A DNA stretch of 60,176 bases. Source: a virus. Below, piece after piece: positions 1,359-53,834 of this stretch (positions are counted from its first letter, which is position 1; every line of letters starts with the position of its first letter). The translations under genes were made by a program, and so were the position numbers. Location of the stretch: the IMG/VR virus record IMGVR_UViG_3300045988_161285, positions 1 to 60,176 of that record; one strand, written 5' to 3'. The notes under the pieces are model-generated. The model made no database searches. It was not told the DNA's origin and saw only the letters and a list, made by a program, of their open reading frames with translations.

Positions 1359-1859
1359 CTATTTTAATAGAGATATTATCTCATTAGGAGTATAAATTAC
1401 ATGGTCAGCATCTGATCCTAACAATGACTCTTCATTAGCACTTCCCCATAAACAAGCAACACTTTCAATTCCCGCTCCATTTGAAGCTATCACATCACTA
1501 ACCTCATCCCCAAAAGAAATAACATCTTCCGCACTTAAACCTAATTGAGTCAATGCTAAATTCATTCCTTCCGAGTTTGGCTTTTGTAATTTAACATCAT
1601 GATAAGCAACAACTGTATCAAAAGGTATATTGAAATGATTTAATACTTTCTTTACATAAACAGAAGGGGCTTTACTCACAATTCCAACTTTTAAATCATT
1701 ATCTCTTATAAATTCAAAAACTTTATCATAAGCTTCATATAATACAAATTTAGAAATCAGTGAATAAACTATATTCCAATCGCGAGCACTTCTATACGAC
1801 TTAGCAATATTTGAGTCTACTAAGGTTTGATCAAGATCAAAAATTATACCTTTCTTCAT
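1359..1859 (-). CDS. HAD-superfamily phosphatase
   Basis: motif I DLDQT near N-terminus, VSKAP, K...GDEVSD; last gene of a 4-gene operon. Confidence 0.75.
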   Translation of the reverse strand: MKKGIIFDLDQTLVDSNIAKSYRSARDWNIVYSLISKFVLYEAYDKVFEFIRDNDLKVGIVSKAPSVYVKKVLNHFNIPFDTVVAYHDVKLQKPNSEGMNLALTQLGLSAEDVISFGDEVSDVIASNGAGIESVACLWGSANEESLLGSDADHVIYTPNEIISLLK

Positions 1860-1870
1860 AAATATACATA

Positions 1871-2860
1871 TTAGAATAATAGCTGTGATTCATAATCATG
1901 TTTATACTGAAGTTGTTTTCCTGACTGCAAGAATTTGTATAATATATTCGCTTCACGTAATTGAAGAGCTCCTTTTCTGATTAAATAACTATTTCCACAA
2001 ACATTCTCCATTTCATTCACACGCTGATCTTTATAAAAGACTGCTGCCAAAATTTTATTATTATCAATGGTCGTTTGGACAGCATGCATTGTACCACCCT
2101 TCATCCCAGTTTGAATTACAATTGTAGCAATAGCTAAACCCGCTTGTAACCTATCTCTTTCTACAAAGTTCGTTTTAAAAGCAGGAGAGCCATAAAAATA
2201 CTCGGATAGTAGTACTCCACCTTTCTCTACTATTTCTATAGCAATGCTTTCATGTGCCTTTGGAGAAATAGTATGAAGACCATGAGCTAATATAGCTGTA
2301 GTTGTTCCATTTTTTACAGATAAGGCAGCTTTATGAGCAATAGTATCACATCCTAATGCTAAGCCACTAACAATATTAAATCCTTTCTCTGCAAAATATT
2401 CTCCATAATATTGCCCTGCTTCTTCTCCTTCTATTGTAGGGTGTCTTGTCCCAATTATTGCAATTGATTTCTTATTATTAATACTATTAATATCACCCTT
2501 ATAATTAAGTACTATTGGAGCTACATCTTTAAATCTATTATTACTATATGATTTCAGTTCTTTAAGTTGTATCGGAAACAAATTATCATATTGAGAAATA
2601 ATATGTACGCCGTTATTCAAAGATTCATCTAAAACTCTTTGAGCTTCATCAATAGCTTTCTGAAAAAGATCTGGAGTCAACTCTTTGTTTAATCTTATAT
2701 AATGAGTTTTTATGCACTCCTGTACATATGACACAATGTCATTATCAGAAAATAGGTTACATTCTATCATAGCTTTAGCTACCACCTCCACAGTCTTAGG
2801 GCCAAAACCTGGTAAATGTTTCAGTTTAATAATTAATTCCGTTTCTTTAGATATGCTCAT
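1871..2860 (-). CDS. DprA/Smf-like DNA-processing protein (ShosA-like)
   Basis: LKHLPGFGPKT HhH-like N-terminus; Rossmann core IAIIGTRHPT, IVSGLALGCDTIAH, ERDRLQAGL, KGGTMH; ATG 2860 preferred over TTG 2866. Confidence 0.8.
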   Translation of the reverse strand: MSISKETELIIKLKHLPGFGPKTVEVVAKAMIECNLFSDNDIVSYVQECIKTHYIRLNKELTPDLFQKAIDEAQRVLDESLNNGVHIISQYDNLFPIQLKELKSYSNNRFKDVAPIVLNYKGDINSINNKKSIAIIGTRHPTIEGEEAGQYYGEYFAEKGFNIVSGLALGCDTIAHKAALSVKNGTTTAILAHGLHTISPKAHESIAIEIVEKGGVLLSEYFYGSPAFKTNFVERDRLQAGLAIATIVIQTGMKGGTMHAVQTTIDNNKILAAVFYKDQRVNEMENVCGNSYLIRKGALQLREANILYKFLQSGKQLQYKHDYESQLLF

Positions 2861-2866
2861 ATTCAA

Positions 2867-3460
2867 TTATAAATTTTCGTTAGCATGCTCATCATGAATT
2901 GTTCTCGCAATACAAAATAAATAAAAAGTTGCGTTAGGCCATTCTTCTTTTAATGTTTTTATTATTTCAGCAGATGTGACGCAAGCTGTTGAAATATCAT
3001 CGACAATCAACACAGATTTATTATTAAGATCTTGTTTTACCTCTATTTCAAAAACCCCCTCCATTTCTACCCTCCTAGAAGCTAAATCCGGTAATCTATG
3101 TAGAGGAGTAGTTACCCTTTTTTTCTTTAACAAACGCGGTAAATATGCCGCAGAAACAGCATCTGCAATAGCAATAGCTAAAGGTCTTAATTTTGCAGAT
3201 TTCAATGCTGTTGTTTCAGAACTTCCTAATGTTCTAATAACATAATCAAACTTTAAGTTTGCGCTATTTATGGCTTCAATGCATTTATCGATAATATACT
3301 GGTCATTTTCATCATTCTTGTTCCATTTAAATTGCTTAATCATGCTAGTCCACTTGGTTGTATCTGTATATCCTTTAGGAATATAATATACTATATGGTA
3401 TGCCTCTTCTAGACCTGCGTCTGTATATTGAGGATCATTTGATAAACTTTTTAATTTCAT
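2867..3460 (-). CDS. phosphoribosyltransferase-fold protein (ComF/ShosT-like), diverged copy
   Basis: PRPP-loop-like VLIVDDISTACVT (Gly missing); paralogous layout to the upstream gene. Confidence 0.6.
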   Translation of the reverse strand: MKLKSLSNDPQYTDAGLEEAYHIVYYIPKGYTDTTKWTSMIKQFKWNKNDENDQYIIDKCIEAINSANLKFDYVIRTLGSSETTALKSAKLRPLAIAIADAVSAAYLPRLLKKKRVTTPLHRLPDLASRRVEMEGVFEIEVKQDLNNKSVLIVDDISTACVTSAEIIKTLKEEWPNATFYLFCIARTIHDEHANENL

Positions 3461-3463
3461 ACA

Positions 3464-4075
3464 TTACTCTCTTGTTGTTTTTGATAAAAAAATACCAGTG
3501 ACACTTTTAGCACCAGTTTCTAATAGTTTAGCAGAGACTTGTTTAAAGGAGGAGCCTGATGTAATAACATCGTCAAACAGCAATACATTTTTACCTTTAT
3601 ACTGTTCTGAGTTTATTGTTAGATATGGTGTTATATTTTTATTACTAGTACCTTTCGTTTCTTCATGTTCAATTGCAGAAAGGTAGTTAAAACCGTTTTC
3701 AATATTTAAAACTTTAGCTACTATACTACAAAAATATTCAAAACGCTTATTTGTCTTTTCCAGTTTTGAAGCAGGTATTATCATCAAACAAGTGTTTTCA
3801 AGATTAACTCCTTCCTTTTTAATACTTTCCACTATTATGTTAGCAGCAGATTCAACAGCAGCTTTATGTCCATCTTTAAAACTATATATAAAATTACGAA
3901 TAGTCTTTATATTATTATCTACATCATTTCCTATTCCAGATAAAGGGTAATAATCATGAATTACATAGTACTTACATTCTTTAAAAGCCATGCTTTTTTC
4001 TTTTCTTATTCGAACTAAGCATGAATCACGATGACGGAATTCTTTAATTTTCTTATCATATTTAAGAGTGTACAT
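3464..4075 (-). CDS. type I phosphoribosyltransferase-fold protein (ComF/ShosT-like)
   Basis: PRPP-binding loop VLLFDDVITSGSS; first gene behind the promoter box at 4105-4112. Confidence 0.7.
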   Translation of the reverse strand: MYTLKYDKKIKEFRHRDSCLVRIRKEKSMAFKECKYYVIHDYYPLSGIGNDVDNNIKTIRNFIYSFKDGHKAAVESAANIIVESIKKEGVNLENTCLMIIPASKLEKTNKRFEYFCSIVAKVLNIENGFNYLSAIEHEETKGTSNKNITPYLTINSEQYKGKNVLLFDDVITSGSSFKQVSAKLLETGAKSVTGIFLSKTTRE

Positions 4076-4104
4076 AGCATTTTATGTTTAAGGATTAGTG
4101 ATTT

Positions 4105-4112
4105 CAAAAATA
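4105..4112 (-). promoter_or_regulatory. Bacteroidota-type -7 box (TATTTTTG on minus strand)
   Basis: caaaaata on plus strand, 30 nt upstream of ATG 4075. Confidence 0.45.
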
Positions 4113-4276
4113 AAAAATAAATATCAAAAAAAACAGTTTTAGAAGAATGTTTATAAACATAAAGCCAAACTTCATTACATTTGGTCGAACTCCATTCATA
4201 ATTGGAGAGTCTATATTAAGTGTTACAACAGCCATTCATGTCTGTACGCAATGTATTAAATGTAAATGAGACAAGT

Positions 4277-4310
4277 AAAAAAGTTGCCCCGAATCAGAGA
4301 GACGGGGCAA
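4277..4310 (-). terminator. rho-independent terminator after the XRE-M78 gene
   Basis: 8-bp stem ttgccccg/cggggcaa followed by a U-run on the minus strand (A-run 4277-4283). Confidence 0.65.
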
Positions 4311-4338
4311 TTATTCATGTATGAGAAAGCTAGAACTA

Positions 4339-5409
4339 CTACAACAAAATTTTTAACCTATAATTCTTTCTATTTAACATAGTACACAAGTTCTGAAAAT
4401 CAGCAACAGACAACCCAACAAGATTTGATAATTCCTCTTCAGAATAATCTAAATCATAAAGATGAGCATCAATCATCTTTTTCAATAACACTGGCTGATC
4501 TATATCGACTTTTTCTGTTTCTTCTTTTCTTTGTCCAGTCTTACTTAGAGTCATCATGTAATATTTATAACTATTATCGCTCAGAGAACCAATTTCTCTA
4601 GCTCGATGTAATATAGCAGCCTTAGACATTTTCCAATACATTTTTAGGTTGCCTAAATCGCCATATCTAATATTAAATAAAGAACGCTTACATTCTACAA
4701 ATGGTAAATTGAATTCTGCAGAAAACTCATTTGCCTGCCTTTCTTTTTCTTGATCTTCGACATCGTCAAAAGGTACGCGAAGGTGCATGACTAAGTGACC
4801 TAATTCATGTCCGATAGTAAACCTTTTCCTATCGTTTGGCATATTGGCATTTACAAAGATAACAGGTTGAGATTTTTTCGTAAACTTAGTGACTCCGTCA
4901 AACTTGTCATTATCAATATCTAGAAAGATGACTATTACCCCATTCTTTTCTAAAACATTAACGATTCGTTCTAATGGTCCCCGCTGAATACCAAGATATT
5001 CTCTTAATTTAAAAGCAATAACTGATGGGGTATTACTCCCTGATACATCGCAATGAGGGATATTCAACTCAGGAACATCTACAGACTCCATTAATTCATC
5101 TATTACCATATTAAGAATGTCAACTTTGGCCTCGAGTATAGATAATTGTTTTTGAGACATACTTACTCGCTTCCGATAAAATAGAGAACCGTTTGAACTA
5201 GCCTGGCTTTCCTTATAAAAAAAACATAGAGGATAGTCCAGTACCTTTGAGATTTCCGCAAGCAATGAATCAGATATAGATAATAACCCTTTTTCTATTC
5301 TGGAAAGATTTCCTTGAGTCAACCCTTTTACTTCTTTTGATAATCCAGACTGAGTCATACCTCTGCTTTCACGCGCTAAAGTAATATTTCGATAATTAAT
5401 AGTGTTCAT
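4339..5409 (-). CDS. XRE-family HTH fused to ImmA/IrrE (M78) zinc metallopeptidase
   Basis: N-terminal HTH MTQSGLSKEVKGLTQGNLSRIEKG; HEXXH site IGHELGHLVMH. Confidence 0.8.
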   Translation of the reverse strand: MNTINYRNITLARESRGMTQSGLSKEVKGLTQGNLSRIEKGLLSISDSLLAEISKVLDYPLCFFYKESQASSNGSLFYRKRVSMSQKQLSILEAKVDILNMVIDELMESVDVPELNIPHCDVSGSNTPSVIAFKLREYLGIQRGPLERIVNVLEKNGVIVIFLDIDNDKFDGVTKFTKKSQPVIFVNANMPNDRKRFTIGHELGHLVMHLRVPFDDVEDQEKERQANEFSAEFNLPFVECKRSLFNIRYGDLGNLKMYWKMSKAAILHRAREIGSLSDNSYKYYMMTLSKTGQRKEETEKVDIDQPVLLKKMIDAHLYDLDYSEEELSNLVGLSVADFQNLCTMLNRKNYRLKILL

Positions 5410-7967: not shown

Positions 7968-8561
7968 TTATTGCATCCTTTTTAAATGGTCATCCAATGT
8001 TTTAGGGTTACATTTAAGCTTACGACATATGGCTGCCTTTGAATAACCATATTCGAGCATAGTTCTAATGAGAGGTTCCTTTCCTGTAAGCTTGTAATGC
8101 GTGTTTTTATCCCCCTTTTTCCGACCAAGTCGTATTCCTGCAGCTTTTCTGTAAGCAAGGGCCTCCTTGGTTCGCTGACTGATCAAATCACGTTCAATCT
8201 CAGCGGATAAACCGAAAGCGAATGCCAATACCTTACTGTTGATGTTATTACCTAATTCGTAACGTTCCTTGACAGTAAGAACGCAAGTCTCCTTAATCAT
8301 ACAGAGGTGAAGCATTGACATAATACCCATCAGGTTTCTTCCTAATCGGCTGATTTCTGTTATGATTAGAGTGTCGCCTTTCTTCATCCTCTTGAGAAGC
8401 GGACCTAATTTCCTATCGTTAGCAATTTTGGTACCGGAAACCTTCTCGGACACCCATTTATCTATTACAAGTCCTTTTTCCGTTGCAAATTTCTGGACTT
8501 CGAACCTTTGGTTCTCGACAGTCTGTTTGTCTGTCGACACACGAATATATGCGTAAACCAT
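7968..8561 (-). CDS. small serine recombinase, DNA invertase (Hin/Gin/Cin family)
   Basis: AYIRVSTDKQ catalytic-Ser motif, GDTLIITEISRLGRN, C-terminal HTH; true start ATG 8561 (MVYAYIRV). Confidence 0.9.
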   Translation of the reverse strand: MVYAYIRVSTDKQTVENQRFEVQKFATEKGLVIDKWVSEKVSGTKIANDRKLGPLLKRMKKGDTLIITEISRLGRNLMGIMSMLHLCMIKETCVLTVKERYELGNNINSKVLAFAFGLSAEIERDLISQRTKEALAYRKAAGIRLGRKKGDKNTHYKLTGKEPLIRTMLEYGYSKAAICRKLKCNPKTLDDHLKRMQ

Positions 8562-8615
8562 TTTTGCGGTGAAGGTAGTCTTATTCAACAGCCTAACCAA
8601 AAAGGGTATTCTAAT

Positions 8616-8639
8616 GACCCTCAAAAGTACAAGGGATAT
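8616..8639 (+). repeat. invertase crossover site S1
   Basis: GACCCTCAAAAGTACAAGGGATAT; putative central AA at 8631-8632. Confidence 0.75.
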
Positions 8640-8979
8640 GATAGAAAAGGTTAATATAACAGATGCCAATGTGGTTGAGTTAATCAGAGAAAAACTGCCT
8701 GCTGCAACAGAAGCAAACAAGGGACTTATGCAAGCTAATGGATTTGAACAAGGTAAGAATATATTAAATGAAGAATACGATAGTAAAATCAGTGCCGGTG
8801 TATATTCATCTACTGATAATTTAAATAATATGGGCACTGGAATTTTATTAGCGCTAAGAGGGTTTCAATACACAGCCCATTTATATATTACCAACTCTGC
8901 AAGAATATATATTAAAACCATTCGTAGCAATGGAGAGGTTTTGAAAGATTGGACGTTAATAAATAATACCAAAACATAA
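8638..8979 (+). CDS. silent tail-fibre tip / receptor-binding cassette A (113 aa)
   Basis: ATG 8638, MIEKVNITDANV...; only the first ~8 aa are shared with the other cassettes. Confidence 0.6.
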   Translation: MIEKVNITDANVVELIREKLPAATEANKGLMQANGFEQGKNILNEEYDSKISAGVYSSTDNLNNMGTGILLALRGFQYTAHLYITNSARIYIKTIRSNGEVLKDWTLINNTKT

Positions 8980-27491: not shown

Positions 27492-27945
27492 TACTATGTA
27501 GATTTATATGTGTCACATCATCAACGAGTATATCAAACACACGGTCCATAATGTCCCGTATTGTTTGCTCCACGTCCGTTGTATATATATCCTCGTACGT
27601 ACCAGAGCGATAAAGTGATGTGCCCTCTGTTGCTATCTTCCGGGCCACAAGGTATGCAAATGACCTTGGTCTCTCCACTTGGATACCCTTGTCTATCATC
27701 CATTGCTGAATAATCTTATAGAATCCTTTCGGTACTTTCCCCGAGGCACGTCCCACCTCCAGAACTCCGAACGCTTGACGACCATAAAGAGTACCATGAT
27801 TATCATCCACGACAACGTGCAGGCTCTTGATAGTTTTGCCACTTGCACGCTGCCCAGCCCGTATATGATTTTCTATGATGCGCTGCCGAAGATTATCCAA
27901 CTCCTCACACAATATCGCCTTTACCTCTTTCCTCCTATCTTCCAT
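27478..27945 (-). CDS. head-tail joining-type small protein (tentative)
   Basis: ATG 27945 (MEDRRKEV), 2 nt after the upstream stop; the track start 27954 is GTG. Confidence 0.45.
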   Translation of the reverse strand: MEDRRKEVKAILCEELDNLRQRIIENHIRAGQRASGKTIKSLHVVVDDNHGTLYGRQAFGVLEVGRASGKVPKGFYKIIQQWMIDKGIQVERPRSFAYLVARKIATEGTSLYRSGTYEDIYTTDVEQTIRDIMDRVFDILVDDVTHINLHSNENS

Positions 27946-30768: not shown

Positions 30769-31623
30769 TTATTTTTTCTTGAATCGTTCGTCCAATATCT
30801 TAGGAACAGTGTTATTCCAATTAATCACGTGGTGCAATCTTTTCGTTTCCTCGCTATGGCCCATCACGCCCACCTTCACAGAGGATGGCATCATCATAAC
30901 CGTATAAAAGCTCTTGACATACGTCCCTTGACTCATGTATATATCCGTCATACCTCCTTTATTCTTCTGTGTCTGCTTCTGGTTTAGCGCCACTTGTGGA
31001 ACCTGCAGAAGCAGACATCCCCTGCTCCCAAGTGTGGTATAGGTGTTCACATCTTCATTAATGCGACCAACGAATTGGAACGGTCTATCTACGGAACAGA
31101 TGAAAGAATTCATCGCTTTTCGTTTCATCTTCTCGCCTTTCAAAATATCGTTCTCCTTTCCTCCTACAAAATCGCCTCTCTGAGCCATAGCCAAAGTGAG
31201 AGCCGGAATACTTTCATAAAAACGTAGCATAGCTTCAAATACCACGTCCAATTGCTTTATTGCCCTCTGTTTGACTGTACCATCTCTGCCGTAAGTAAAA
31301 GAAAAAACATCGTAATCATCATCCAGTTCTATGAAGTATTTGTAACCAAGTTTCCTTGCTATCTGAAAGCAAGCATTGCGCGCATAAACAATAGCTCTGC
31401 GATCATCAAAATTATCCGCTTCATCAAAAGTCTTTGCAATCTTCGGTTTATCGAACATTATAACGTTTTTATATTTCGCGTAATAATCTGCGGCCGCCTT
31501 ATCTTCATTGTCTATCACATAAACAATTGGTCCCGTATAGCCACACTTCCGCAAAGTCTTATCTGTGATGACGGAATCGGCACGGCCATGCGTCAGTATG
31601 AACGCTACAAAATCACTCCTCAT
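30769..31623 (-). CDS. GT-A-like glycosyltransferase-fold protein (tentative)
   Basis: Rossmann-like N-terminus, DxD-type motif FIELDDDYD; 284 aa. Confidence 0.35.
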   Translation of the reverse strand: MRSDFVAFILTHGRADSVITDKTLRKCGYTGPIVYVIDNEDKAAADYYAKYKNVIMFDKPKIAKTFDEADNFDDRRAIVYARNACFQIARKLGYKYFIELDDDYDVFSFTYGRDGTVKQRAIKQLDVVFEAMLRFYESIPALTLAMAQRGDFVGGKENDILKGEKMKRKAMNSFICSVDRPFQFVGRINEDVNTYTTLGSRGCLLLQVPQVALNQKQTQKNKGGMTDIYMSQGTYVKSFYTVMMMPSSVKVGVMGHSEETKRLHHVINWNNTVPKILDERFKKK

Positions 31624-32377
31624 CTTCGGTATCCTCCAGCATTATTTCATAAATATCCTCCTTGAACCGAGAATAACCGTTCTCTATCGCCTTATCAAAA
31701 TCTATTATTACCAGTGCAGATGCCTCCATCAGTTCCTGGACTTCTTTATCTTGATGAGCATAGAACTCTGCTATCTGTCCGTAATCAAATACTATATGCC
31801 TCAATGCTGCTATCCGAAGAAATTCCTTCACACAGTCCGGGACATCTGAATCGTCTATTGCCGAAAGCAGTTCTTCATATTTACTTTTGTCATAGAGAGA
31901 ATCTATTTCCGGGCATACAGGGCTTTTAGGCTCATACACCGGAGCTTCAATCTTTTTCGTGTATTTATTCCGGGCATCACTTTCACTATCTACCAGACTA
32001 TCATAGTCAAAATCAAAGTTTAATCCCCAATCCATCAAAGACTCTGCATTCCACTCCTTCAATAGTTTTTCGTCCCATGTACCATTATTCACGTTATCAC
32101 GGATAATAATCTCCCGTTCTCGTTCTTCTGTCAACCCATGAAGCAGAACCGTCGGCACGTCAGAAAGTCCTAGTTCCACACTGGCATCATACCGTTGGTT
32201 TCCGGCTATAATCACCAGTTCCCCAGTCCGGTCAGAGAGTATGATGGGACGTGCCTCGAAGTAGTCCGGATTACTATGAATAGACTCTTTGAGTATCCGC
32301 ATCTGCTCCTCTGATATGGTTCTGGGATTGTTACCCAGTTTTTTAAGGTCTTCTATTTTTCTATAAATTATCTCCAT
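31613..32377 (-). CDS. ParB/Srx N-terminal-domain protein (ParB-like nuclease family)
   Basis: LGNNPRTISEEQ...PIILSD...VIIAGNQRYDAS; ATG 32377 preferred over GTG 32383. Confidence 0.7.
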   Translation of the reverse strand: MEIIYRKIEDLKKLGNNPRTISEEQMRILKESIHSNPDYFEARPIILSDRTGELVIIAGNQRYDASVELGLSDVPTVLLHGLTEEREREIIIRDNVNNGTWDEKLLKEWNAESLMDWGLNFDFDYDSLVDSESDARNKYTKKIEAPVYEPKSPVCPEIDSLYDKSKYEELLSAIDDSDVPDCVKEFLRIAALRHIVFDYGQIAEFYAHQDKEVQELMEASALVIIDFDKAIENGYSRFKEDIYEIMLEDTEDEE

Positions 32378-32600
32378 TGGCACACTATTTTACGTTACGA
32401 AAATAAAGATACCGAATAATCCACGAACGGACTATTCGGCATCAAAGAAGTTACTGACACGATTTGGCAGAAGATTTTGCTTTAGCCAGCAATACCTTAA
32501 ATAAATCCCAACCTTCAATTTAACAATTACACCGTTAATGGTTAACAAGTACATTTACCAGCTAAACCATGTTATAAGATGGCTGAACAAAGGCTCATAA

Positions 32601-32631: not shown

Positions 32632-32637
32632 CAATGT

Positions 32638-32703
32638 GTTTTTCATAGTATTAGATTAAGGTTAACAAAAAGATTGGCTGTCCGTGAGGATAAGCCCGTT
32701 TTC
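32638..32703 (+). ncRNA. candidate ~65-nt small RNA (promoter plus terminator, no ORF)
   Basis: hairpin ggctgtcc GTGA ggataagccc plus GTTTT at 32676-32702, ~45 nt downstream of the predicted start. Confidence 0.35.
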
Positions 32704-32785
32704 GTTCCTTCCGGCAGTATAGAAAAAAGAGAGAAATCCATATATCCATTTCCCCGTATCAATGCTTTTCCCTCTGAATTTTATT

Positions 32786-44812: not shown

Positions 44813-45633
44813 TACTCTAATCCAAAGATTTTTTTATCAGCAATAATGTCTCGGTTTGCTTCCAAAAACTCTATGAAATGCTCGCAGTGTGCCGTAAGCA
44901 GCTTAATCGTCTGTTCATGGTTATAAGTGTAGTATTCCGGGTATTGCGTTCCGCTAATTAGTGGCGTCCGGCTGGTACCGCCCTTCATCTGATAGGCAGT
45001 GTACTCAAACGCTTTCACGCTTTCCATCTGACCGGAAGCAATCAGACAGTAAGGATATACATGGCGCTGCCAGCCGTGTTCATACTTGCCAAAATCATAC
45101 TTAGATGTTGTCTTGATATCATATACAGTATCACGAACGAGCTCATCTATATACCCATAAAGCTCCACATCACCATAGCGAGTGGGAATGACTGCGGACA
45201 CAAAGACTTGGGACAATGCACCGGAAAAATACTTCGACTGCTCTATACACCAGCTACGGTCAAATAAGAAATTACGCTCTGGCGCGATATCAGTAGCAGG
45301 AAAATATACCTGAATGGTATTCGTTTCTCCATCACCGATAATGGTGTATGGCTCCCGTTCGCTTGGTATATGCTTTTTCTTGTGGATATAGCAGTCTATG
45401 ACAGCATTAAAGGCCGTTCCTTTATCAGCTGCCTCACTCTCAAACGGGACACGGTTTATCGCATCAAGTAGGCTTTGCTTCAGCTCCGCTTCAATTACTT
45501 CCGGACTTTTCTTATATTCCCCCGTTTCATTATCGACATTCCAGAAGCTCTCTACTTGTTCATCAGCCCGTAAATACTGCTCGAATTTATCAAGCAGTGA
45601 CGGGTAGAATCTGTATTTAGGCTGCTGGTTCAT
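44812..45633 (-). CDS. PD-(D/E)XK nuclease (RecB/Cas4-like exonuclease)
   Basis: GYIDEL...VYDIKTT catalytic pattern. Confidence 0.55.
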   Translation of the reverse strand: MNQQPKYRFYPSLLDKFEQYLRADEQVESFWNVDNETGEYKKSPEVIEAELKQSLLDAINRVPFESEAADKGTAFNAVIDCYIHKKKHIPSEREPYTIIGDGETNTIQVYFPATDIAPERNFLFDRSWCIEQSKYFSGALSQVFVSAVIPTRYGDVELYGYIDELVRDTVYDIKTTSKYDFGKYEHGWQRHVYPYCLIASGQMESVKAFEYTAYQMKGGTSRTPLISGTQYPEYYTYNHEQTIKLLTAHCEHFIEFLEANRDIIADKKIFGLE

Positions 45634-46555
45634 ACCTTTTGCTGAGTTTGTTAAACTTCAAGCCAAGTCTCTTGCACTTCTCATTGAGCATCATGCCTGC
45701 CCGTACCTTGCTGTCAAAGATATGCGTCATGGTGTCTAAAGCTTCCCGAACAGAATTGGCAGATTGTGTATCAGTCACTTGTTCCACTGCGTCACGGATA
45801 GCATCAAGAACCGCATCATATTCGGAAGATAGTTCCGTCTGCTTCGTCTGATACTCCTTATAAGTACTGATGATTTTCGTCATGAAATCATTCTCACCCG
45901 TTACGGTACCAGACTCATCAATGATTACGGGAATTTTGATATGTGAAGGAAGATTACAAGTATTCTTCCCGTAGAACTTCTCGCACGGGTCAAAAGAAAT
46001 AGTTCTATCTTTACCGATAGCTTCCATGTAACCAACCAAATCCAACTCCTTAATCAAATCACCGGCAGATGAGCCACCAATCTCCGGACGTATCTGTTTT
46101 TCGTCGCCTACTTTCTCCTCCCGTTCATGAGCCACGAAGATAACAGACTTGCCCATGAGTGTGACTTGATTAACGAAGTTGATGAACATGTTCTTACGTA
46201 CTCCATACCCCTGCAGGGAAGGGGTACCATCCGCTTTCTTCATCTTCGGATTCGCTGCCATAATCGCCTTATCCATAAAAGAAAGCATCTTTCCGGCAGT
46301 ATCAATCACAATAGTGGAAAACTCCTTGATTTCTTCGGACGAAAGTACCTGGTTCGTCTCGTCCCAGCTTGTAATCTGGACGGTCGGTACACGATGGGCG
46401 GCATTGACACGGTGAATACCGCCGTCATAATCGAACAATACCGGATTGGGAGCCGATAATGCAAGAGTTGTTTTTCCCATGCCAGGTTGGCCGTAAATCA
46501 GTGCTGACAAGGTAGTCTTAACGGTCAGCTCGTTAGGTCTTTTGATAAGTCCCAT
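45617..46555 (-). CDS. Sak4-like RecA-fold ATPase (AAA_24-type)
   Basis: Walker A LIYGQPGMGKTTLAL, Walker B TIVIDTAG; start ATG 46555 (MGLIKRP). Confidence 0.65.
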   Translation of the reverse strand: MGLIKRPNELTVKTTLSALIYGQPGMGKTTLALSAPNPVLFDYDGGIHRVNAAHRVPTVQITSWDETNQVLSSEEIKEFSTIVIDTAGKMLSFMDKAIMAANPKMKKADGTPSLQGYGVRKNMFINFVNQVTLMGKSVIFVAHEREEKVGDEKQIRPEIGGSSAGDLIKELDLVGYMEAIGKDRTISFDPCEKFYGKNTCNLPSHIKIPVIIDESGTVTGENDFMTKIISTYKEYQTKQTELSSEYDAVLDAIRDAVEQVTDTQSANSVREALDTMTHIFDSKVRAGMMLNEKCKRLGLKFNKLSKRYEPAA

Positions 46556-46590: not shown

Positions 46591-46624
46591 CCAAAGGAAA
46601 GCCCCGAAGCGTATTCTCCGGGGC
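46591..46624 (-). terminator. hairpin terminator closing the tRNA-like transcription unit
   Basis: gccccg/cggggc stem followed on the minus strand by UUUCCUUUGG. Confidence 0.4.
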
Positions 46625-46770
46625 GCAAACGACAAATACTCCTAATCCTATCCGATTTCGCATTACCTTTCAGATAGAGTCAACGGCTAACCGATGCTGC
46701 GCGGATGATTCCCTGCGCTATCTTCGCCCTACTCTCGGACTAAAAGCGGATTTTCTCTCATAAAGGCTTG

Positions 46771-46901
46771 TAGAAACGGATGGATTCGAACCACCGACCG
46801 CCGCTTGTGGTGCTCTCCCATTAAGCTAAGAATCTACTTGAGAGAATCGAACTCTCAACCTTCCACCACACACGGTGCTCTATCCACTGAGCTACGTTCC
46901 C
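46771..46901 (-). ncRNA. tRNA-derived RNA A (131 nt) with a 12-bp extended anticodon helix and a 51-nt insert
   Basis: acceptor GGGAACG/CGUUUCU, D arm GCUC-AGUGGAUA-GAGC, T arm GGUGG-UUCGAAU-CCAUC; helix 46801-46812 with 46864-46875. Confidence 0.5.
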
Positions 46902-46995
46902 AGAATAGGTGAACTATTTTCACAAACCGTTCACCTTGAAACACAAACAAAAAATAAAACACGACAAAACTACTAAATAACCCTCTCTTGGATTG

Positions 46996-47063
46996 TGGAC
47001 GTTGACGGACTCGAACCGCCAATCTCCTCAAATGAGTTGTGTTAGCCATTACACCGAACGCCC
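46996..47063 (-). tRNA. compact 68-nt tRNA-like gene, possibly degenerate tRNA-Gln(UUG)
   Basis: acceptor GGGCGUU/AACGUCC, D arm GUGU-AAUGGCUA-ACAC, T arm GGCGG-UUCGAGU-CCGUC; only 18 nt between arms, loop AUUUGAG. Confidence 0.4.
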
Positions 47064-47244
47064 ATATTTGCCTACCATATCTTCACAGACTGGGCAGGCA
47101 GGTCAACAAAGTTGCTCCCGGATAGGCGGTCAAGCCACACCGGGATAGTCACTTAAAACAAAAGCAAAATAAAAACTTAAATGAGGACTCTCACCTCACG
47201 TTGTCCTTTACAACGGAATTATAGATTAAACAATAAAAAGCTTG

Positions 47245-47358
47245 TGGACAATGCGGGATTTGAACGCCGCGACCTGTACATGAAACCTTTAAACAATACC
47301 ATGACAAATTACCAATACTAACTACATGTACCGCTCTACCAAGCTGAGCTAATTGCCC
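47245..47358 (-). ncRNA. tRNA-derived RNA C (114 nt) with a 7-bp stem enclosing a 42-nt U-rich loop
   Basis: acceptor GGGCAAU/AUUGUCC, D arm GCUC-AGCUUGGUA-GAGC, T arm with bulged C; stem GUACAUG/CAUGUAC. Confidence 0.5.
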
Positions 47359-47591
47359 GTGTCTGTCCCTGCTCTCACGAGTAGAGACAACTCCCATGTC
47401 TAATTCTAAATCAATCTAATTATGTGTGAAACACTTCCTCCGCTGAGGTCTATATCTTGAACACCTTTTTCAGGACATTGTGATAAAACCAATACGAATA
47501 CACAAGGCCAAAAAGGTTTATACCATAATTCCAGTCTCCCGTTACCGAGTCTACATCATTAAACATCAATAAACATGGTAGTGCCAATACG

Positions 47592-47895: not shown

Positions 47896-48276
47896 TTAAA
47901 AAATAAAGTCGTTATTATTCTTTCGGCCAGTCCTTATATATCGCATGGCTGTCCGTACCCGTGATGGTATTCTCATTCTCCGTAAATCAATATCATTGCA
48001 AGTGACCTGCATCAATAAGAATAGAATGGAAAATAGGAATTCAAGCCCGTGTCTGCGTAATTCCTTCAAGTCAAAATCACGCTTAAGCCTATCGCAAATC
48101 ATATACAGAAGCAGTTCCGTATCTTTGGAAATACCCAACTTCCGGTATATCGTTCTTTTCTGGGTCTTGACAGTCCAAACCGATTTATTCAGATTGCCCG
48201 CCACCTCCTTGTCGGCAAGCCCCTTGCAGTACTCATTCGCGACAAGCAGTTCCGTAGGAGAAAGGGAAATCATCAT
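47896..48276 (-). CDS. LuxR-type HTH protein with hydrophobic C-terminal region
   Basis: LSPTELLVANEYCKGLADKEVAGNLNKSVWTVKTQKRTIYRKLG. Confidence 0.6.
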   Translation of the reverse strand: MMISLSPTELLVANEYCKGLADKEVAGNLNKSVWTVKTQKRTIYRKLGISKDTELLLYMICDRLKRDFDLKELRRHGLEFLFSILFLLMQVTCNDIDLRRMRIPSRVRTAMRYIRTGRKNNNDFIF

Positions 48277-51032: not shown

Positions 51033-51743
51033 ATGGAAGCTTGGAAAAGAGTTGAATTTATTATTGAAAAAGAAGGCTTGAATAAGAATTCATTCAGTAA
51101 AGCTATTGGTATATCTAATAATGTAACTATCACTCGCATTATTAACGAGCATCGTACACCTTCACGTGCAACATGTGAAAAGATAGTTAGTGCATTCCCT
51201 GCATACAATTTAGAATGGCTACTAACTGGTGAAGGAAATATGCTTACCGATGCTCCATCACAGACGTACCACTCCAACGCCCGCCCAGTTGACGATTTAA
51301 GCTACATGAACGTGCCCGTTATACACATCAAAGCACAATGTGGTTATCTCGCCGGATATGGAGATACCGAATATATAGACACCTTGCCCACAATGCCGGT
51401 AATCGTAGATAAGACCTATCACGGAAAATACCGCATATTTGAAGCAGAAGGTGACAGTATGGATGACAACAGCAGGCTTGCCATCTGCGATGGTGACAAG
51501 GTTTTAGCAAGGGAAGTAAGACGTGACCTTTGGCTTCCCAAACTTCATATTAACGACTGGTACTTCGTTATTGTACACCGTACAAACGGCATATCCATCA
51601 AGCAAATCACGGCCCAAGATGATAAAGGTAATATCACCTGCCACTCGCTCAATGAGTTATTCAATGACTACACCGTTAACCTTGATGATGTAGTGGAGAT
51701 ATACAACGTGATTAAGGTTGTTGAACGCAATATGAGACTATAA
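51033..51743 (+). CDS. CI/LexA-like repressor (HTH plus S24 peptidase)
   Basis: NSFSKAIGISNNVTITRIINE HTH; EAEGDSMDD Ser motif and SIKQI Lys. Confidence 0.8.
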   Translation: MEAWKRVEFIIEKEGLNKNSFSKAIGISNNVTITRIINEHRTPSRATCEKIVSAFPAYNLEWLLTGEGNMLTDAPSQTYHSNARPVDDLSYMNVPVIHIKAQCGYLAGYGDTEYIDTLPTMPVIVDKTYHGKYRIFEAEGDSMDDNSRLAICDGDKVLAREVRRDLWLPKLHINDWYFVIVHRTNGISIKQITAQDDKGNITCHSLNELFNDYTVNLDDVVEIYNVIKVVERNMRL

Positions 51744-53157: not shown

Positions 53158-53264
53158 TTTTTCCTATTTATTGTCGACATCAGATTTAAACCAGCCTATA
53201 AAGAAGTGATACACAGATTATAGCTATATTTTCAATACAATAAGTCTAGTTTAGTTTTTGTGTG

Positions 53265-53305
53265 AAGCACTTCCTCCGTAAGCGAACGTTGGAAGTGCTT
53301 TTTTA
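53265..53305 (+). terminator. rho-independent terminator ending the cI operon
   Basis: aagcacttcc ... ggaagtgctt stem plus TTTTTT. Confidence 0.7.
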
Positions 53306-53834
53306 GGTGCAACAAGTACTTACGAAAAACAAGCAAATTAAAAATAGTTTCACTTTTGGGGCTAAATAATTGCCGAAAAATTGCAAAAACAAAAATAAAT
53401 CAGAAAAGCTATATAGACCTGCATCAAAAACATTTGTAAAGTATGAGGGCGATTTGCAGAAGTGGAATTAGACCATTCGAGCGTACCTGGGATTTTTATA
53501 TCAATTACCCAATATCAGCTCCCAGTTATCCATAATGGCCATCTCTCAATGTAGCACATCAGGCTGATAAATTGTATAATTTATTCAAAAGCAATAAAAT
53601 CTATGCACAGCTCTACCTTCCTTAAATATTATTTGTAGACTTTTATATATTTTGTCCTGTTTTATAAAAAAACATGTCATACTTTTGCATATATAAATGT
53701 TCTCCTGAACATTTTACATTTTTATTCTTTTGTGTCTGTGAAGACACAAAAAATGTTTGTTTTGTTTGTATCATCCTCTCTTTTAGCGAAAAGAGAGGAT
53801 GACTTTTATTATACTTAAGATATGAAAAGAGCGA

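What the first reader, a model, noticed from the sequence alone, without database searches (positions are those of the whole stretch)
46591..47358. Cluster of three tRNA-derived genes with intact acceptor, D and T arms but replaced or expanded anticodon arms
Read on the minus strand, three genes have textbook acceptor stems, D arms (with GG) and T arms (UUCGAAU, UUCGAGU, UUCAAAU). All three are followed by the same trailer ACAAKC instead of CCA. Gene A (46771-46901): the anticodon stem continues as a 12-bp helix (CCGUGUGUGGUG with CACCACAAGCGG; one GU, one mismatch). It is capped by a 51-nt insert that itself contains a T-arm-like hairpin UUGAGAG-UUCGAUU-CUCUCAA and a D-arm-like GCUUAAUGGGAGAGC, as if a second tRNA fragment were nested inside. 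Gene C (47245-47358): a 7-bp stem GUACAUG/CAUGUAC encloses a 42-nt U-rich loop. Gene B (46996-47063): only 68 nt; its best fold gives loop AUUUGAG (anticodon UUG) with an A-A mismatch and almost no variable loop. The ~150 nt between gene A and the terminator at 46591-46624 also shows nested pairings (tccga/tcgga, agatag/ctatct, gcgcagg/ccgcgc). Bacterial tRNA genes are not known to carry 40-50-nt anticodon-arm inserts; group I introns are much larger. These may be tRNA mimics, for example decoys for anticodon nucleases or tRNA-modifying or tRNA-sensing defence proteins, scaffolds presenting an antisense loop, or decayed tRNAs.
Basis: seen in the sequence. Interest (0 to 1): 0.65.

Follow-up and report, generated by a model that had tools for sequence, protein, structure and literature searches.

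The report
Phage tRNA-shaped RNAs carrying cargo inserts
A Bacteroides prophage carries three conserved RNA genes that keep the body of a tRNA but have lost the anticodon loop, which is replaced by a stub or by a conserved insert; they most likely use the host's tRNA-processing enzymes to make non-decoding small RNAs, and relatives are common but unannotated in phage genomes.

Summary
The Rfam tRNA model finds three minus-strand tRNA-like genes: A 46771-46901, B 46996-47063 and C 47245-47358. ARAGORN finds none, because no gene has a 7-nt anticodon loop. They are not decayed tRNAs. Acceptor and T stems covary across relatives. A's 75-nt insert is 0-5% diverged while its tRNA body is up to 31% diverged across five scaffolds. 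C's loop core is invariant, and B keeps a 4-bp/tetraloop stub in 63 loci.

The 150 nt after A is a separate conserved RNA, here called D. In 65 viral contigs it almost always abuts the 3' end of some tRNA-like gene. Related phages hold a whole family. One identical Leu-type scaffold at one locus carries four unrelated inserts, and at least 120 viral contigs carry Leu-type versions.

Best explanation (inferred, not shown): these are tRNA-shaped handles cut by RNase P and RNase Z. They release and stabilise insert or trailer RNAs and punctuate the early transcript. Invariant G3:U70 plus A73 in A and B suggests charging by AlaRS. A decoy role remains open. They are not members of the YrlA, tmRNA, C4 or intron-tRNA families. 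I found no prior description.

The parts
47245..47358 (-). Gene C: a tRNA-like RNA of 114 nt. It has a 7-bp acceptor stem, a D arm, and a T arm with a 1-nt bulge. The anticodon arm is replaced by a 7-bp stem and a 42-nt loop.
   Evidence: RF00005 gives 40.2 bits. In 15 variants, compensatory changes occur at acceptor pairs 4:69 and 5:68, at T-stem pairs 49:65 and 50:64, and at one pair of the 7-bp stem.
47280..47315 (-). Conserved, mostly unpaired core of the C loop (UUGGUAAUUUGUCAUGGUAUUGUUUAAAGGUUUCAU).
   Evidence: It is invariant or nearly so in all C variants while the scaffold varies. RNAalifold predicts little structure in it. No complementary site above chance exists in the window.
47403..47430 (-). 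Sigma-70-like promoter match upstream of C (TTCACA-16-TAGAAT).
   Evidence: Consensus scan only. The number of matches is not above the shuffled expectation, and Bacteroides promoters differ from this consensus, so this is weak.
47181..47199 (-). Terminator-like hairpin plus U run after gene C.
46996..47063 (-). Gene B: a tRNA-like RNA of 68 nt. The anticodon arm is reduced to a 3-4-bp stem with a tetraloop (47027-47036). It has G3:U70, A73 and C8.
   Evidence: RF00005 gives 43.2 bits. In 14 variants 98% of cells are paired; pair 4:69 switches AU/CG; pair 50:64 is GU, AU or GC; G3:U70 is kept in 14/14. B is present in 63 of 81 loci and in Bacteroides clarus YIT 12056.
46771..46901 (-). Gene A: a tRNA-like RNA of 131 nt. 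The outer body is Ala-type (G3:U70, A73, G15:C48).
   Evidence: RF00005 gives 43.9 bits. The minimum-free-energy fold gives the nested structure. Six outer pairs show compensatory changes, reached by 0/500 shuffles.
46801..46875 (-). The insert of A. It comprises a 10-12-bp helix, GAAGG, a T-arm-like hairpin (46838-46858), an 11-nt linker, and UA plus a D-arm-like hairpin (46812-46828). Together these form a second, circularly permuted tRNA elbow without an acceptor stem.
   Evidence: Infernal aligns the inner D arm to the tRNA consensus. There is a weak YrlA-like match of 22.6 bits. Divergence is 0-5% against 5-31% for the scaffold. The insert is unchanged in 29 metagenome contigs even when the inner T stem was allowed to vary.
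46644..46752 (-). Element D: a conserved structured RNA core that starts about 19 nt after A's 3' end. Its helices are P0 AAUCC/GGAUU, P1 UCCGA/UCGGA, P2 AGAUA/UAUCU and P3 GCGC-GG/CCGCGC, plus a small hairpin.
   Evidence: Found in 65 viral contigs and 22 variants. In 20 of the 22 it lies directly after the discriminator and CAA of a tRNA-like gene, and the type of that gene differs between variants. It has no Rfam match.
46601..46624 (-). Intrinsic terminator that closes the A-D unit, 46 nt upstream of the Sak4-like ATPase start codon (46555).
   Evidence: Two pairs show compensatory changes across variants. The same hairpin follows other tRNA-like genes in other loci.
46916..46924 (-). Motif UGUGAAAAU about 22 nt upstream of A. 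B has the equivalent UGUGAAGAU at 47079-47087. It may be a promoter or a leader element.
   Evidence: It was seen upstream of A-type and B-type genes in several scaffolds and loci. Its function was not tested.

Best explanation
What is shown. A, B and C are tRNA-derived genes that have lost the anticodon loop and so cannot decode. They remain under purifying selection as folded tRNA bodies: a 7-bp acceptor stem, D and T arms, G18G19 and the T loop, and a 15:48 pair that matches in each module. They belong to a large, modular family in Bacteroides phages and other phages. The insert, where present, is the most constrained part.

What is inferred. The tRNA body works as a processing and stability handle. 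The host RNase P cuts at G1. RNase Z cuts after A73, because the trailer is CAA rather than CCA. The CCA-adding enzyme then finishes the 3' end. This would have three consequences. First, it releases stable small RNAs that present an insert in place of the anticodon loop: a second tRNA elbow on a long helix in A, and a 35-nt conserved single-stranded loop in C. Second, it frees the 5' end of whatever follows: element D after A here, and in relatives that lack A and D, the Sak4 mRNA that starts 35 nt after B. Third, it thereby punctuates the early leftward transcript.

What is speculative. The inserts are the effectors, either protein-binding or base-pairing modules that are exchanged between phages. 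In A and B the invariant G3:U70 with A73 means that AlaRS, which does not read the anticodon, still charges the RNA.
For: Non-decoding but selected:
- ARAGORN finds nothing, while the tRNA model scores 40-44 bits.
- Stems covary in C, B and A (6 compensatory pairs, 0/500 shuffles).

The insert is the constrained part:
- A's insert is 0-5% diverged against 5-31% for the scaffold, across five scaffolds.
- The core of C's loop is invariant.

Modularity:
- An identical 45-nt flank and an identical Leu-type scaffold carry four unrelated inserts of 53, 57, 60 and 103 nt.
- The C-type scaffold in the cultured phage BS-TP3 carries a different U-rich loop.

Handle for the downstream RNA:
- Element D abuts the 3' end of tRNA-like genes of different types in 20 of 22 variants.
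- B ends 35 nt before the Sak4 ATG in relatives.

Wider picture:
- The related phage loci hold almost no canonical tRNA.
- No partner protein is conserved next to these genes. None of 50 window ORFs is a Ro60/TROVE protein, an RNA ligase or a nucleotidyltransferase. Host enzymes are therefore the likely processors.

Precedents for processing at tRNA-like elements: the phage P1/P7 C4 RNA, tmRNA, mascRNA and mitochondrial t-elements (PMC4919922).

AlaRS identity: G3:U70 is kept in 10/10 A variants and 14/14 B variants while pairs 1, 4, 5, 6 and 7 turn over. The other scaffold type is Leu-like with its long variable arm retained. By established knowledge, AlaRS and LeuRS do not read the anticodon.
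Against: There are no expression, end-mapping or charging data, so every processing step is an inference from shape.

B carries no insert. The handle model gives it only a punctuation role, yet it is the most widely kept gene and keeps G3:U70.

G3:U70 is not kept in every family. C has G:U, G-C and A-U at this position, and the first 82-nt family has G:U and A-U. Charging therefore cannot be general.

No target or partner was found for any insert.

The inner helices of A and the core of D never vary, so their folds are not supported by covariation.

The promoter assignments are weak.
Confidence: 0.5

Rival explanations
1. Body decoys or sponges. The RNAs imitate the acceptor, T and D body of tRNA in order to occupy a host factor that recognises that body. 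Candidates are a defence nuclease or toxin acting on tRNA ends, elbows or anticodon arms, or a processing or charging enzyme. Removal of the anticodon loop would keep the RNAs out of translation and make them uncleavable.
For: B is a bare tRNA body and is the most widely retained gene. The insert of A is a second tRNA elbow. In L111 and L208 a complete B-like tRNA body is nested inside a Leu-type scaffold, so inserts repeatedly add further tRNA-like bodies. These phages carry almost no decoding tRNAs. tRNA-directed defences are common, and one that cuts tRNA CCA tails (Cas12a3) is enriched in gut Bacteroidota (PMC13594972). Anticodon-arm nucleases are described in PMC13056530, and phage tRNAs are known to escape them (PMC10264068).
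Against: The model does not explain C's invariant single-stranded loop. It does not explain the many unrelated inserts in one scaffold, or why element D is tied to the 3' ends. No defence gene or target was identified. A decoy for anticodon nucleases would be expected to keep the anticodon loop that those enzymes read.
Confidence: 0.25
2. Aminoacylation is the point. A and B (Ala-type) and the Leu-type relatives are charged by anticodon-independent synthetases. They then act as charged, non-decoding tRNAs. They might titrate AlaRS, LeuRS or EF-Tu, donate the amino acid to a non-ribosomal transferase, or work in some tmRNA-like way.
For: G3:U70 with A73 is invariant in A and B despite turnover of the neighbouring pairs. 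The scaffolds are Ala-like and Leu-like, and these are two of the three synthetase systems that ignore the anticodon (established knowledge). tmRNA is a precedent for an Ala-charged tRNA-like RNA whose anticodon arm is replaced.
Against: 3:70 becomes a Watson-Crick pair in part of the C family and part of the 82-nt family. No tag reading frame or pseudoknots are present, and ARAGORN finds no tmRNA. No aminoacyl-tRNA-dependent transferase was seen among the ORFs scanned. Charging was not tested.
Confidence: 0.15
3. These are intron-containing tRNA genes. The inserts would be removed to give ordinary decoding tRNAs.
For: The inserts sit in the anticodon region, where tRNA introns occur.
Against: B has nothing to remove and still lacks a 7-nt loop. 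The inserts are far too small for group I introns and there is no intron match in Rfam. The flanking stems are continuous helices with no bulge-helix-bulge motif. The inserts are more conserved than the exons. A's insert has tRNA-like tertiary signatures of its own.
Confidence: 0.03
4. These are decaying tRNA pseudogenes with no function.
For: tRNA finders reject them.
Against: There are compensatory changes in the stems, invariant inserts, retention across many phage lineages and scaffolds, and each appears to have its own terminator.
Confidence: 0.02

Closest known systems
C4 antisense RNA of phages P1 and P7 (RNase P substrate; cited in PMC4919922, its reference 206)
   Same: It is a regulatory RNA of a temperate phage, encoded in the early/immunity region. 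Host RNase P matures it because part of it looks like a tRNA acceptor. By my own knowledge, its loops carry the specificity that differs between related phages.
   Different: There is no sequence or Rfam match to the C4 family. C4 is not a full cloverleaf with D and T arms. The antisense targets of C4 are known, whereas none was found here.
tmRNA tRNA-like domain
   Same: It has an acceptor stem with G3:U70, a T arm, and an anticodon arm replaced by a long helix leading to other RNA. It is charged by AlaRS and processed by RNase P.
   Different: The genes here have a full D arm, no tag reading frame and no pseudoknots, and are 68-131 nt long. ARAGORN and Rfam find no tmRNA.
YrlA, the bacterial Y RNA with a tRNA-like domain (PMC4201824)
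   Same: A's insert has the same permuted order as YrlA: helix, variable-like stretch, T arm, linker, D arm, helix. YrlA is modified and processed by tRNA enzymes and also occurs in phages.
   Different: The score is 22.6 bits against a gathering score of 69. There is no acceptor-like hairpin between the T and D arms. By inspection the GNCGAA motif is absent. No Ro60/TROVE gene was found in the prophage. Here the module is nested inside another tRNA body.
mascRNA/MALAT1 and plant mitochondrial t-elements (PMC4919922, PMC1920247); MHV68 tRNA-miRNA units (own knowledge)
   Same: These are tRNA-shaped elements used only as RNase P and RNase Z cleavage signals. They define the ends of adjacent RNAs and are themselves non-decoding.
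   Different: They are eukaryotic or organellar and not homologous. They carry nothing in the anticodon position.
Engineered 'tRNA scaffold' for expressing recombinant RNA in bacteria (own knowledge, not checked here)
   Same: The design is the same: the RNA of interest replaces the anticodon stem-loop, so the chimera is processed and protected like a tRNA.
   Different: That design is artificial. Here the same arrangement appears to have evolved naturally and to be exchanged between phages.
Phage T4 species 1 and 2 stable RNAs (own knowledge, not checked here)
   Same: They are small stable RNAs of unknown function encoded among phage tRNA genes and matured with them.
   Different: No sequence relation was tested. 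T4 also carries decoding tRNAs, whereas these phages mostly do not.

Membership tests
Canonical decoding tRNA | A 5-bp anticodon stem with a 7-nt loop (U33 plus a 3-nt anticodon). | tested here: not met
   ARAGORN finds 0 genes. Infernal skips 69 nt in A and 45 nt in C, and aligns no anticodon loop in B. B's hairpin is a 4-bp stem with a tetraloop in relatives.
Canonical decoding tRNA | Acceptor stem, D arm, T arm and the tertiary-contact nucleotides. | tested here: met
   G18G19 and the T loop UUCRANU are present. The 15:48 pair is G:C in A and C, and A:U in B and in A's inner module. Exceptions are C8 in B and a 1-nt bulge in C's T stem.
Group I intron-containing tRNA | A self-splicing intron of about 200 nt or more with the P1-P9 core, located in the anticodon loop. 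| tested here: not met
   The inserts are 42-51 nt. There is no Intron_gpI match even at E up to 10.
Archaeal-type (bulge-helix-bulge) intron tRNA | A 3-nt bulge, a 4-bp helix and a 3-nt bulge at the exon-intron junctions. | tested here: not met
   By inspection, both inserts are closed by continuous helices of 7 or 10-12 bp with no bulges.
tmRNA | G3:U70 and A73 in the acceptor stem. | tested here: met
   True for A, for B and for the window's copy of C. It does not hold for all C relatives.
tmRNA | A tag-peptide reading frame with a stop codon, pseudoknots, and a degenerate D arm. | tested here: not met
   ARAGORN and Rfam find no tmRNA. Full D arms are present. No reading frame is conserved in C's loop across variants (inspection).
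YrlA / bacterial Y RNA (RF02553) | A covariance-model score at or above the gathering threshold. | tested here: not met
   22.6 bits against 69.
YrlA / bacterial Y RNA (RF02553) | Encoded next to a Ro60/Rsr (TROVE) gene. | tested here: not met
   No TROVE domain among 50 ORFs of the window scanned with Pfam or PHROGs. ORFs under 90 aa and a few others were not scanned.
YrlA / bacterial Y RNA (RF02553) | Binding to the Ro60 ring through the conserved helix. | not testable with these tools
   This needs immunoprecipitation.
C4 antisense RNA (P1/P7) | Sequence and structure match to the family. | tested here: not met
   No Rfam match other than tRNA and weak chance hits.
C4 antisense RNA (P1/P7) | Loops complementary to sites in the phage's own downstream mRNA. 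| tested here: inconclusive
   The longest complement of C's loop in the window is 11 nt, which is typical of shuffled loops. Short split pairings like those of C4 would not stand out in this test.
RNase P / RNase Z substrate (tRNA-like processing element) | A 12-bp acceptor/T coaxial stack, a T/D elbow, and a 3' trailer that is not CCA. | tested here: met
   The trailers are CAAGCC, CAAUCC and CAAGCU. The base at position -1 is U for A and B, and C for gene C.
RNase P / RNase Z substrate (tRNA-like processing element) | Actual cleavage at G1 and after A73. | not testable with these tools
   This needs end mapping or in vitro cleavage.

The most novel reading that the evidence does not exclude
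Phages of Bacteroides, and apparently of many other hosts, maintain a natural tRNA-scaffold cassette system. Constant tRNA bodies of the Ala and Leu types, the types that can be processed and probably charged without an anticodon, display interchangeable insert RNAs and are linked to a conserved trailer RNA (D). The inserts would be fast-swapping specificity modules in a conflict between phage and host or between phages, acting as RNA-based counter-defence or immunity determinants. This would be a class of phage small RNAs that current tRNA and sRNA annotation misses completely.
Probability: 0.3. Interest if true: 0.85.

Novelty: new variant of a known kind. Interest (0 to 1): 0.72.

Why it matters
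Non-decoding tRNA-like RNAs are known only as isolated cases: tmRNA, YrlA, mascRNA and the phage P1 C4 RNA. Here the same design recurs as a modular family in gut Bacteroides phages. The family has Ala-type and Leu-type bodies, inserts that are either frozen or swapped wholesale, and a linked conserved RNA. A looser scan finds at least 120 further viral contigs from many environments.

These genes are invisible to ARAGORN, are lost by Rfam's fast filters, and are unannotated in the one cultured phage record examined (BS-TP3).

If the inserts are effectors, this is a new reservoir of phage regulatory or counter-defence RNAs in the gut virome. It would also be a natural counterpart of the engineered tRNA scaffold. 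If A and B are charged with alanine, this would be a second class of charged, non-decoding tRNA-like RNA after tmRNA.

Testable systems exist: phage BS-TP3 on Bacteroides salyersiae BG8, and the Bacteroides clarus YIT 12056 lysogen.

Tried and rejected
- **Antisense targets.** The complement of C's loop was searched in the window as a 14-mer with 2 mismatches, as a degenerate 15-mer, and as longest exact complements against 200 shuffles. It was also searched in all fetched loci. Only the gene itself and chance-level matches were found. The four Leu-type inserts were compared with their own loci and also gave chance-level results. A slower duplex-energy scan timed out.
- **Conserved neighbouring protein.** ORFs within 3 kb of 119 Leu-type genes were clustered. 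The best cluster occurs in only 19 loci and looks like an ordinary replication or recombination gene.
- **Partner enzymes in the prophage.** 50 ORFs were scanned. No TROVE protein, RNA ligase, CCA enzyme or aminoacyl-tRNA transferase was found.
- **More divergent copies of A's insert, to test covariation of the inner arms.** A metagenome scan that left the inner T stem free still returned only the same sequence. The inner fold therefore rests on similarity to tRNA arms, not on covariation.
- **Host range.** The exact-protein look-up gave only metagenome contigs.
- **A short coding frame in C's loop (tmRNA-like).** The frame is broken by indels in relatives (inspection).
- **Literature.** Eight full-text searches found no description of anticodon-less tRNA-like families in Bacteroides phages.
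Full report
**1. Setting**

The window is a Bacteroides prophage, roughly 1.3-53 kb, with host DNA at the right end. Most genes are on the minus strand.

- On the plus strand, a CI-like repressor (HTH plus S24 peptidase, 51033-51743) and Cro-like HTH genes face a leftward early operon. That operon contains a LuxR/GerE-type HTH protein (47896-48276).
- After the region in question come a Sak4-like AAA ATPase (45617-46555), a nuclease-like protein, NinB, helicases and DNA methyltransferases. Packaging, head, tail and lysis genes follow.
- Rfam matches just below threshold to the Bacteroides sRNA families FopS, BTnc201 and BTnc049 fit the host assignment. A related prophage sits in Bacteroides clarus YIT 12056.
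- The finding lies in the 900-nt non-coding gap between the last small early ORF and the Sak4 gene.

**2.

They score 40-44 bits against a gathering score of 29.
- The model has to jump 69 nt in A and 45 nt in C, and finds no loop in B.
- ARAGORN finds nothing in the whole window.
- With Rfam's fast filters on the full window, only fragments of A survive. This is why such genes go unannotated.
- One correction concerns B. Its relatives read CCUC-AUUC-GAGG followed by a 5-nt variable loop. B therefore has a 4-bp/tetraloop stub, not a 7-nt loop with anticodon UUG.

**3. They are selected RNAs, not wrecks**

Searching with the neighbouring ATPase gave 273 related IMG/VR stretches, of which 80 loci were fetched. 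B and C occur in 63 of the 81 loci compared. A plus the following 180 nt occur in 29.

- **C (15 distinct sequences).** Compensatory changes occur in the acceptor stem (4:69, 5:68) and the T stem (49:65, 50:64), and once in the 7-bp stem that closes the insert. The centre of the insert (UUGGUARUUUGUCAUGGUAU... GGUUUCAU) does not change and is predicted to be mostly unpaired.
- **B (14 sequences).** 98% of cells are paired. Pair 4:69 switches between A-U and C-G, and 50:64 runs through G-U, A-U and G-C. The tetraloop varies.
- **A.** Two further scans recovered the same insert in five different outer tRNA bodies: a viral scan (51 contigs) and a metagenome scan (29 contigs), the latter with the inner T stem left free. 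The acceptor stems are GGGAACG/CGUUUCU, GGGAAUG/CAUUUCC, GGGCGGU/ACCGUCC, GGGGAUG/CGUUUCC and GAGAACG/CGUUUCC.
  - On this alignment six outer pairs show compensatory changes, reached by 0 of 500 shuffles.
  - The slid controls drop from 96% to 36-57% paired.
  - Relative to the window copy, the body differs by 5-31% and the 75-nt insert by 0-5%.

In A the insert, not the tRNA body, is the most constrained part.

**4. Anatomy**

All three genes keep what makes a tRNA an L-shaped substrate. Each has a 7-bp acceptor stem on a 5-bp T stem, the T loop UUCRANU, G18G19 in the D loop, and a 15:48 pair. That pair is G:C in A and C and A:U in B.

A's insert is a 10-12-bp continuation of the anticodon stem, topped by:
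- GAAGG;
- a 7-bp hairpin with a perfect T loop (UUCGAUU);
- an 11-nt linker;
- UA followed by GCUU-AAUGGGA-GAGC, which Infernal aligns to the tRNA D-arm consensus.

Its own 15:48 equivalent is A:U. This is a second tRNA elbow in circularly permuted order with no acceptor stem, the order found in YrlA (PMC4201824). It explains the weak YrlA hit of 22.6 bits against a threshold of 69. A is thus two tRNA-like bodies joined through a shared anticodon helix.

Two cautions apply. The inner helices never vary, so this fold rests on resemblance and on the energy model. The minimum-free-energy fold also draws a different small hairpin in place of the D-like arm.

**5. A family, and its modularity**

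A simple scanner was written that looks for a T arm, a complementary 7-nt acceptor and a D arm, with any distance between them. It found many more such genes in the related loci:
- two 82-nt types with 14-16-nt loops;
- a 63-nt type;
- a series built on a tRNA-Leu-type body (D arm UGGCGGAAUUGGUAGACGC, long variable arm kept, A15:U48) with 50-125-nt middles.

One locus (L087) holds five in a row. In L111 and L208 the Leu-type body carries a complete B-like tRNA body in the anticodon position. ARAGORN either misses these genes or reports 2-nt or 4-nt anticodons.

Four phages share an identical 45-nt upstream flank and an identical Leu-type body (GGUAUCG...CGGUACC). They nevertheless carry four unrelated inserts of 53, 57, 60 and 103 nt.

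The cultured phage BS-TP3 (host B. salyersiae BG8) has an unannotated C-type body with a different U-rich 44-nt loop at the same genomic position.

Of these, 85 were parsed. Most have 7/7 acceptor pairs, discriminator A and a trailer starting with C. ARAGORN is blind to them, and the Rfam tRNA model scores them at 31-41 bits.

**6. The stretch after A is a separate element (D)**

The 146 nt between A and the terminator folds no better than shuffled sequence. It is nevertheless conserved.

- A scan for its core found 65 viral contigs and 22 variants.
- A core of about 105 nt is almost invariant (46644-46752 here). It is followed by a variable linker and an intrinsic terminator with two compensatory pairs.
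- In 20 of the 22 variants D begins right after the discriminator and CAA of a tRNA-like gene. That gene is A-type here, Leu-type with any of four inserts elsewhere, and of yet other types in other contigs.
- The downstream protein gene differs between contexts, which argues against a riboswitch for one pathway.
- D has no Rfam match.
- In the relatives that lack A and D, B ends 35 nt before the Sak4 start codon.

**7. How it most likely works**

Shown:
- The genes are non-decoding.
- The tRNA body is under selection.
- The inserts are conserved or swapped as units.
- The 3' end is linked to D or to the next mRNA.
- No dedicated protein partner is present.

Inferred: host RNase P, RNase Z and the CCA-adding enzyme treat these as tRNA precursors. 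This yields stable small RNAs that display the insert. It also defines the 5' end of D or of the downstream message, so the elements punctuate the early transcript.

Precedents are the RNase P-processed C4 RNA of P1/P7, tmRNA, mascRNA and mitochondrial t-elements (PMC4919922, PMC1920247). The engineered tRNA scaffold is a further precedent, from my own knowledge.

Speculative: the inserts are the effectors. A frozen insert (A and C) suggests a fixed partner. Wholesale swapping in one scaffold suggests specificity modules in a conflict. I put about 0.5 on this handle-plus-insert model.

**8. The alanine signal**

G3:U70 with A73 is the AlaRS identity set (established knowledge). It is kept in 10/10 A variants and 14/14 B variants, while pairs 1, 4, 5, 6 and 7 of the same stem turn over. 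The second scaffold type is Leu-like.

AlaRS and LeuRS, together with SerRS, are the synthetases that ignore the anticodon. This fits a requirement that the RNA still be charged.

However, 3:70 is G-C or A-U in part of the C family and part of the 82-nt family. Charging therefore cannot be universal, and nothing was tested. I treat it as an add-on hypothesis with probability about 0.15 as the main function. The probability is higher that A and B are merely chargeable.

**9. Rivals**

- **Body decoy or sponge (about 0.25).** This model explains B and the repeated nesting of extra tRNA bodies. It fits a gut setting rich in tRNA-directed defences (PMC13594972, PMC13056530, PMC10264068). It does not explain C's loop, the insert swapping or the link to D.
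- **Intron-containing tRNAs (0.03).** Rejected by the tests in sections 2 and 3.
- **Pseudogenes (0.02).** Rejected by the same tests.

**10. Membership and novelty**

The genes are not members of the decoding tRNAs, group I or bulge-helix-bulge intron tRNAs, tmRNA, YrlA or the C4 family. In each case a defining feature was tested and failed.

They work most like tRNA-shaped processing elements and like a natural tRNA scaffold. Eight full-text searches found no description of them.

I rate this a new variant of a known kind, namely tRNA-like non-coding RNAs. The wider prevalence, the cassette behaviour and element D raise its interest.

Noticed in passing
window 46644-46752 (-), with terminator 46601-46624; alignment A5: Element D is a conserved RNA of about 105 nt that is absent from Rfam. 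It was found in 65 viral contigs, almost always fused to the 3' end of a tRNA-like gene, and that gene's type varies.
   Followed up: partly
L213, L286, L288 and L300 (upstream of their D elements): These four loci share the same 45-nt flank and the same Leu-type tRNA body but carry four unrelated inserts of 57, 103, 60 and 53 nt. This is cassette-like polymorphism at one locus.
   Followed up: partly
L134-L252 (IMG/VR, many environments): At least 120 viral contigs carry tRNA-Leu-type bodies with oversized middles. A recurrent body, AGUCAGG...CCUGACU, carries very diverse inserts. ARAGORN finds none of them.
   Followed up: partly
L111 6188-6341 and L208 about 3502: A Leu-type tRNA body holds a complete B-like tRNA body nested in its anticodon position, that is, a tRNA within a tRNA.
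   Followed up: no
L310 3176-3285 (PQ571276.1, about 27702-27811): The cultured Bacteroides phage BS-TP3 has an unannotated 110-nt C-type tRNA-like gene with a different U-rich loop, located between gp35 and gp36. The GenBank record also labels the Sak4/DnaB-like gene 'terminase large subunit'.
   Followed up: partly
L087 2398-2469 (-) and L105 550-620 (-): One relative has a canonical-looking tRNA-Phe(GAA) with a 7-nt loop. A close copy in another contig has lost one loop base, leaving a 6-nt loop. This may be a snapshot of how decoding is lost.
   Followed up: no
window 32636-32708 (+): This is a match to the Bacteroidetes FopS sRNA family, at 54.8 bits against a gathering score of 56. It lies in an intergenic gap of the prophage, antisense to the main operon. 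The overlapping GibS match is weaker.
   Followed up: no
window 53213-53305 (+) and 53724-53812 (+): These are sub-threshold matches to the Bacteroides sRNAs BTnc049 and BTnc201, at the right-hand edge of the prophage.
   Followed up: no
window 30769-32383 (-): A TET-associated glycosyltransferase (TAGT) lies next to a ParB_N-domain protein beside the terminase genes. This may be a DNA hypermodification module.
   Followed up: no
window 1359-5409 (-): A cluster at the left end of the prophage comprises a HAD/PNK3P-like phosphatase, a DprA-like protein, a phosphoribosyltransferase and an HTH plus M78 peptidase (ImmA/IrrE-like) protein. It may be an accessory or defence module.
   Followed up: no
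window 46916-46924 (-) and 47079-47087 (-): The motif UGUGAARAU lies about 22 nt upstream of A-type and B-type genes and is conserved across different scaffolds and loci. It may be a promoter or leader signal that moves with the genes.
   Followed up: no
window 7968-8837 (-): A serine recombinase (resolvase domain) lies inside the prophage. No tyrosine integrase was found among the ORFs scanned.
   Followed up: no
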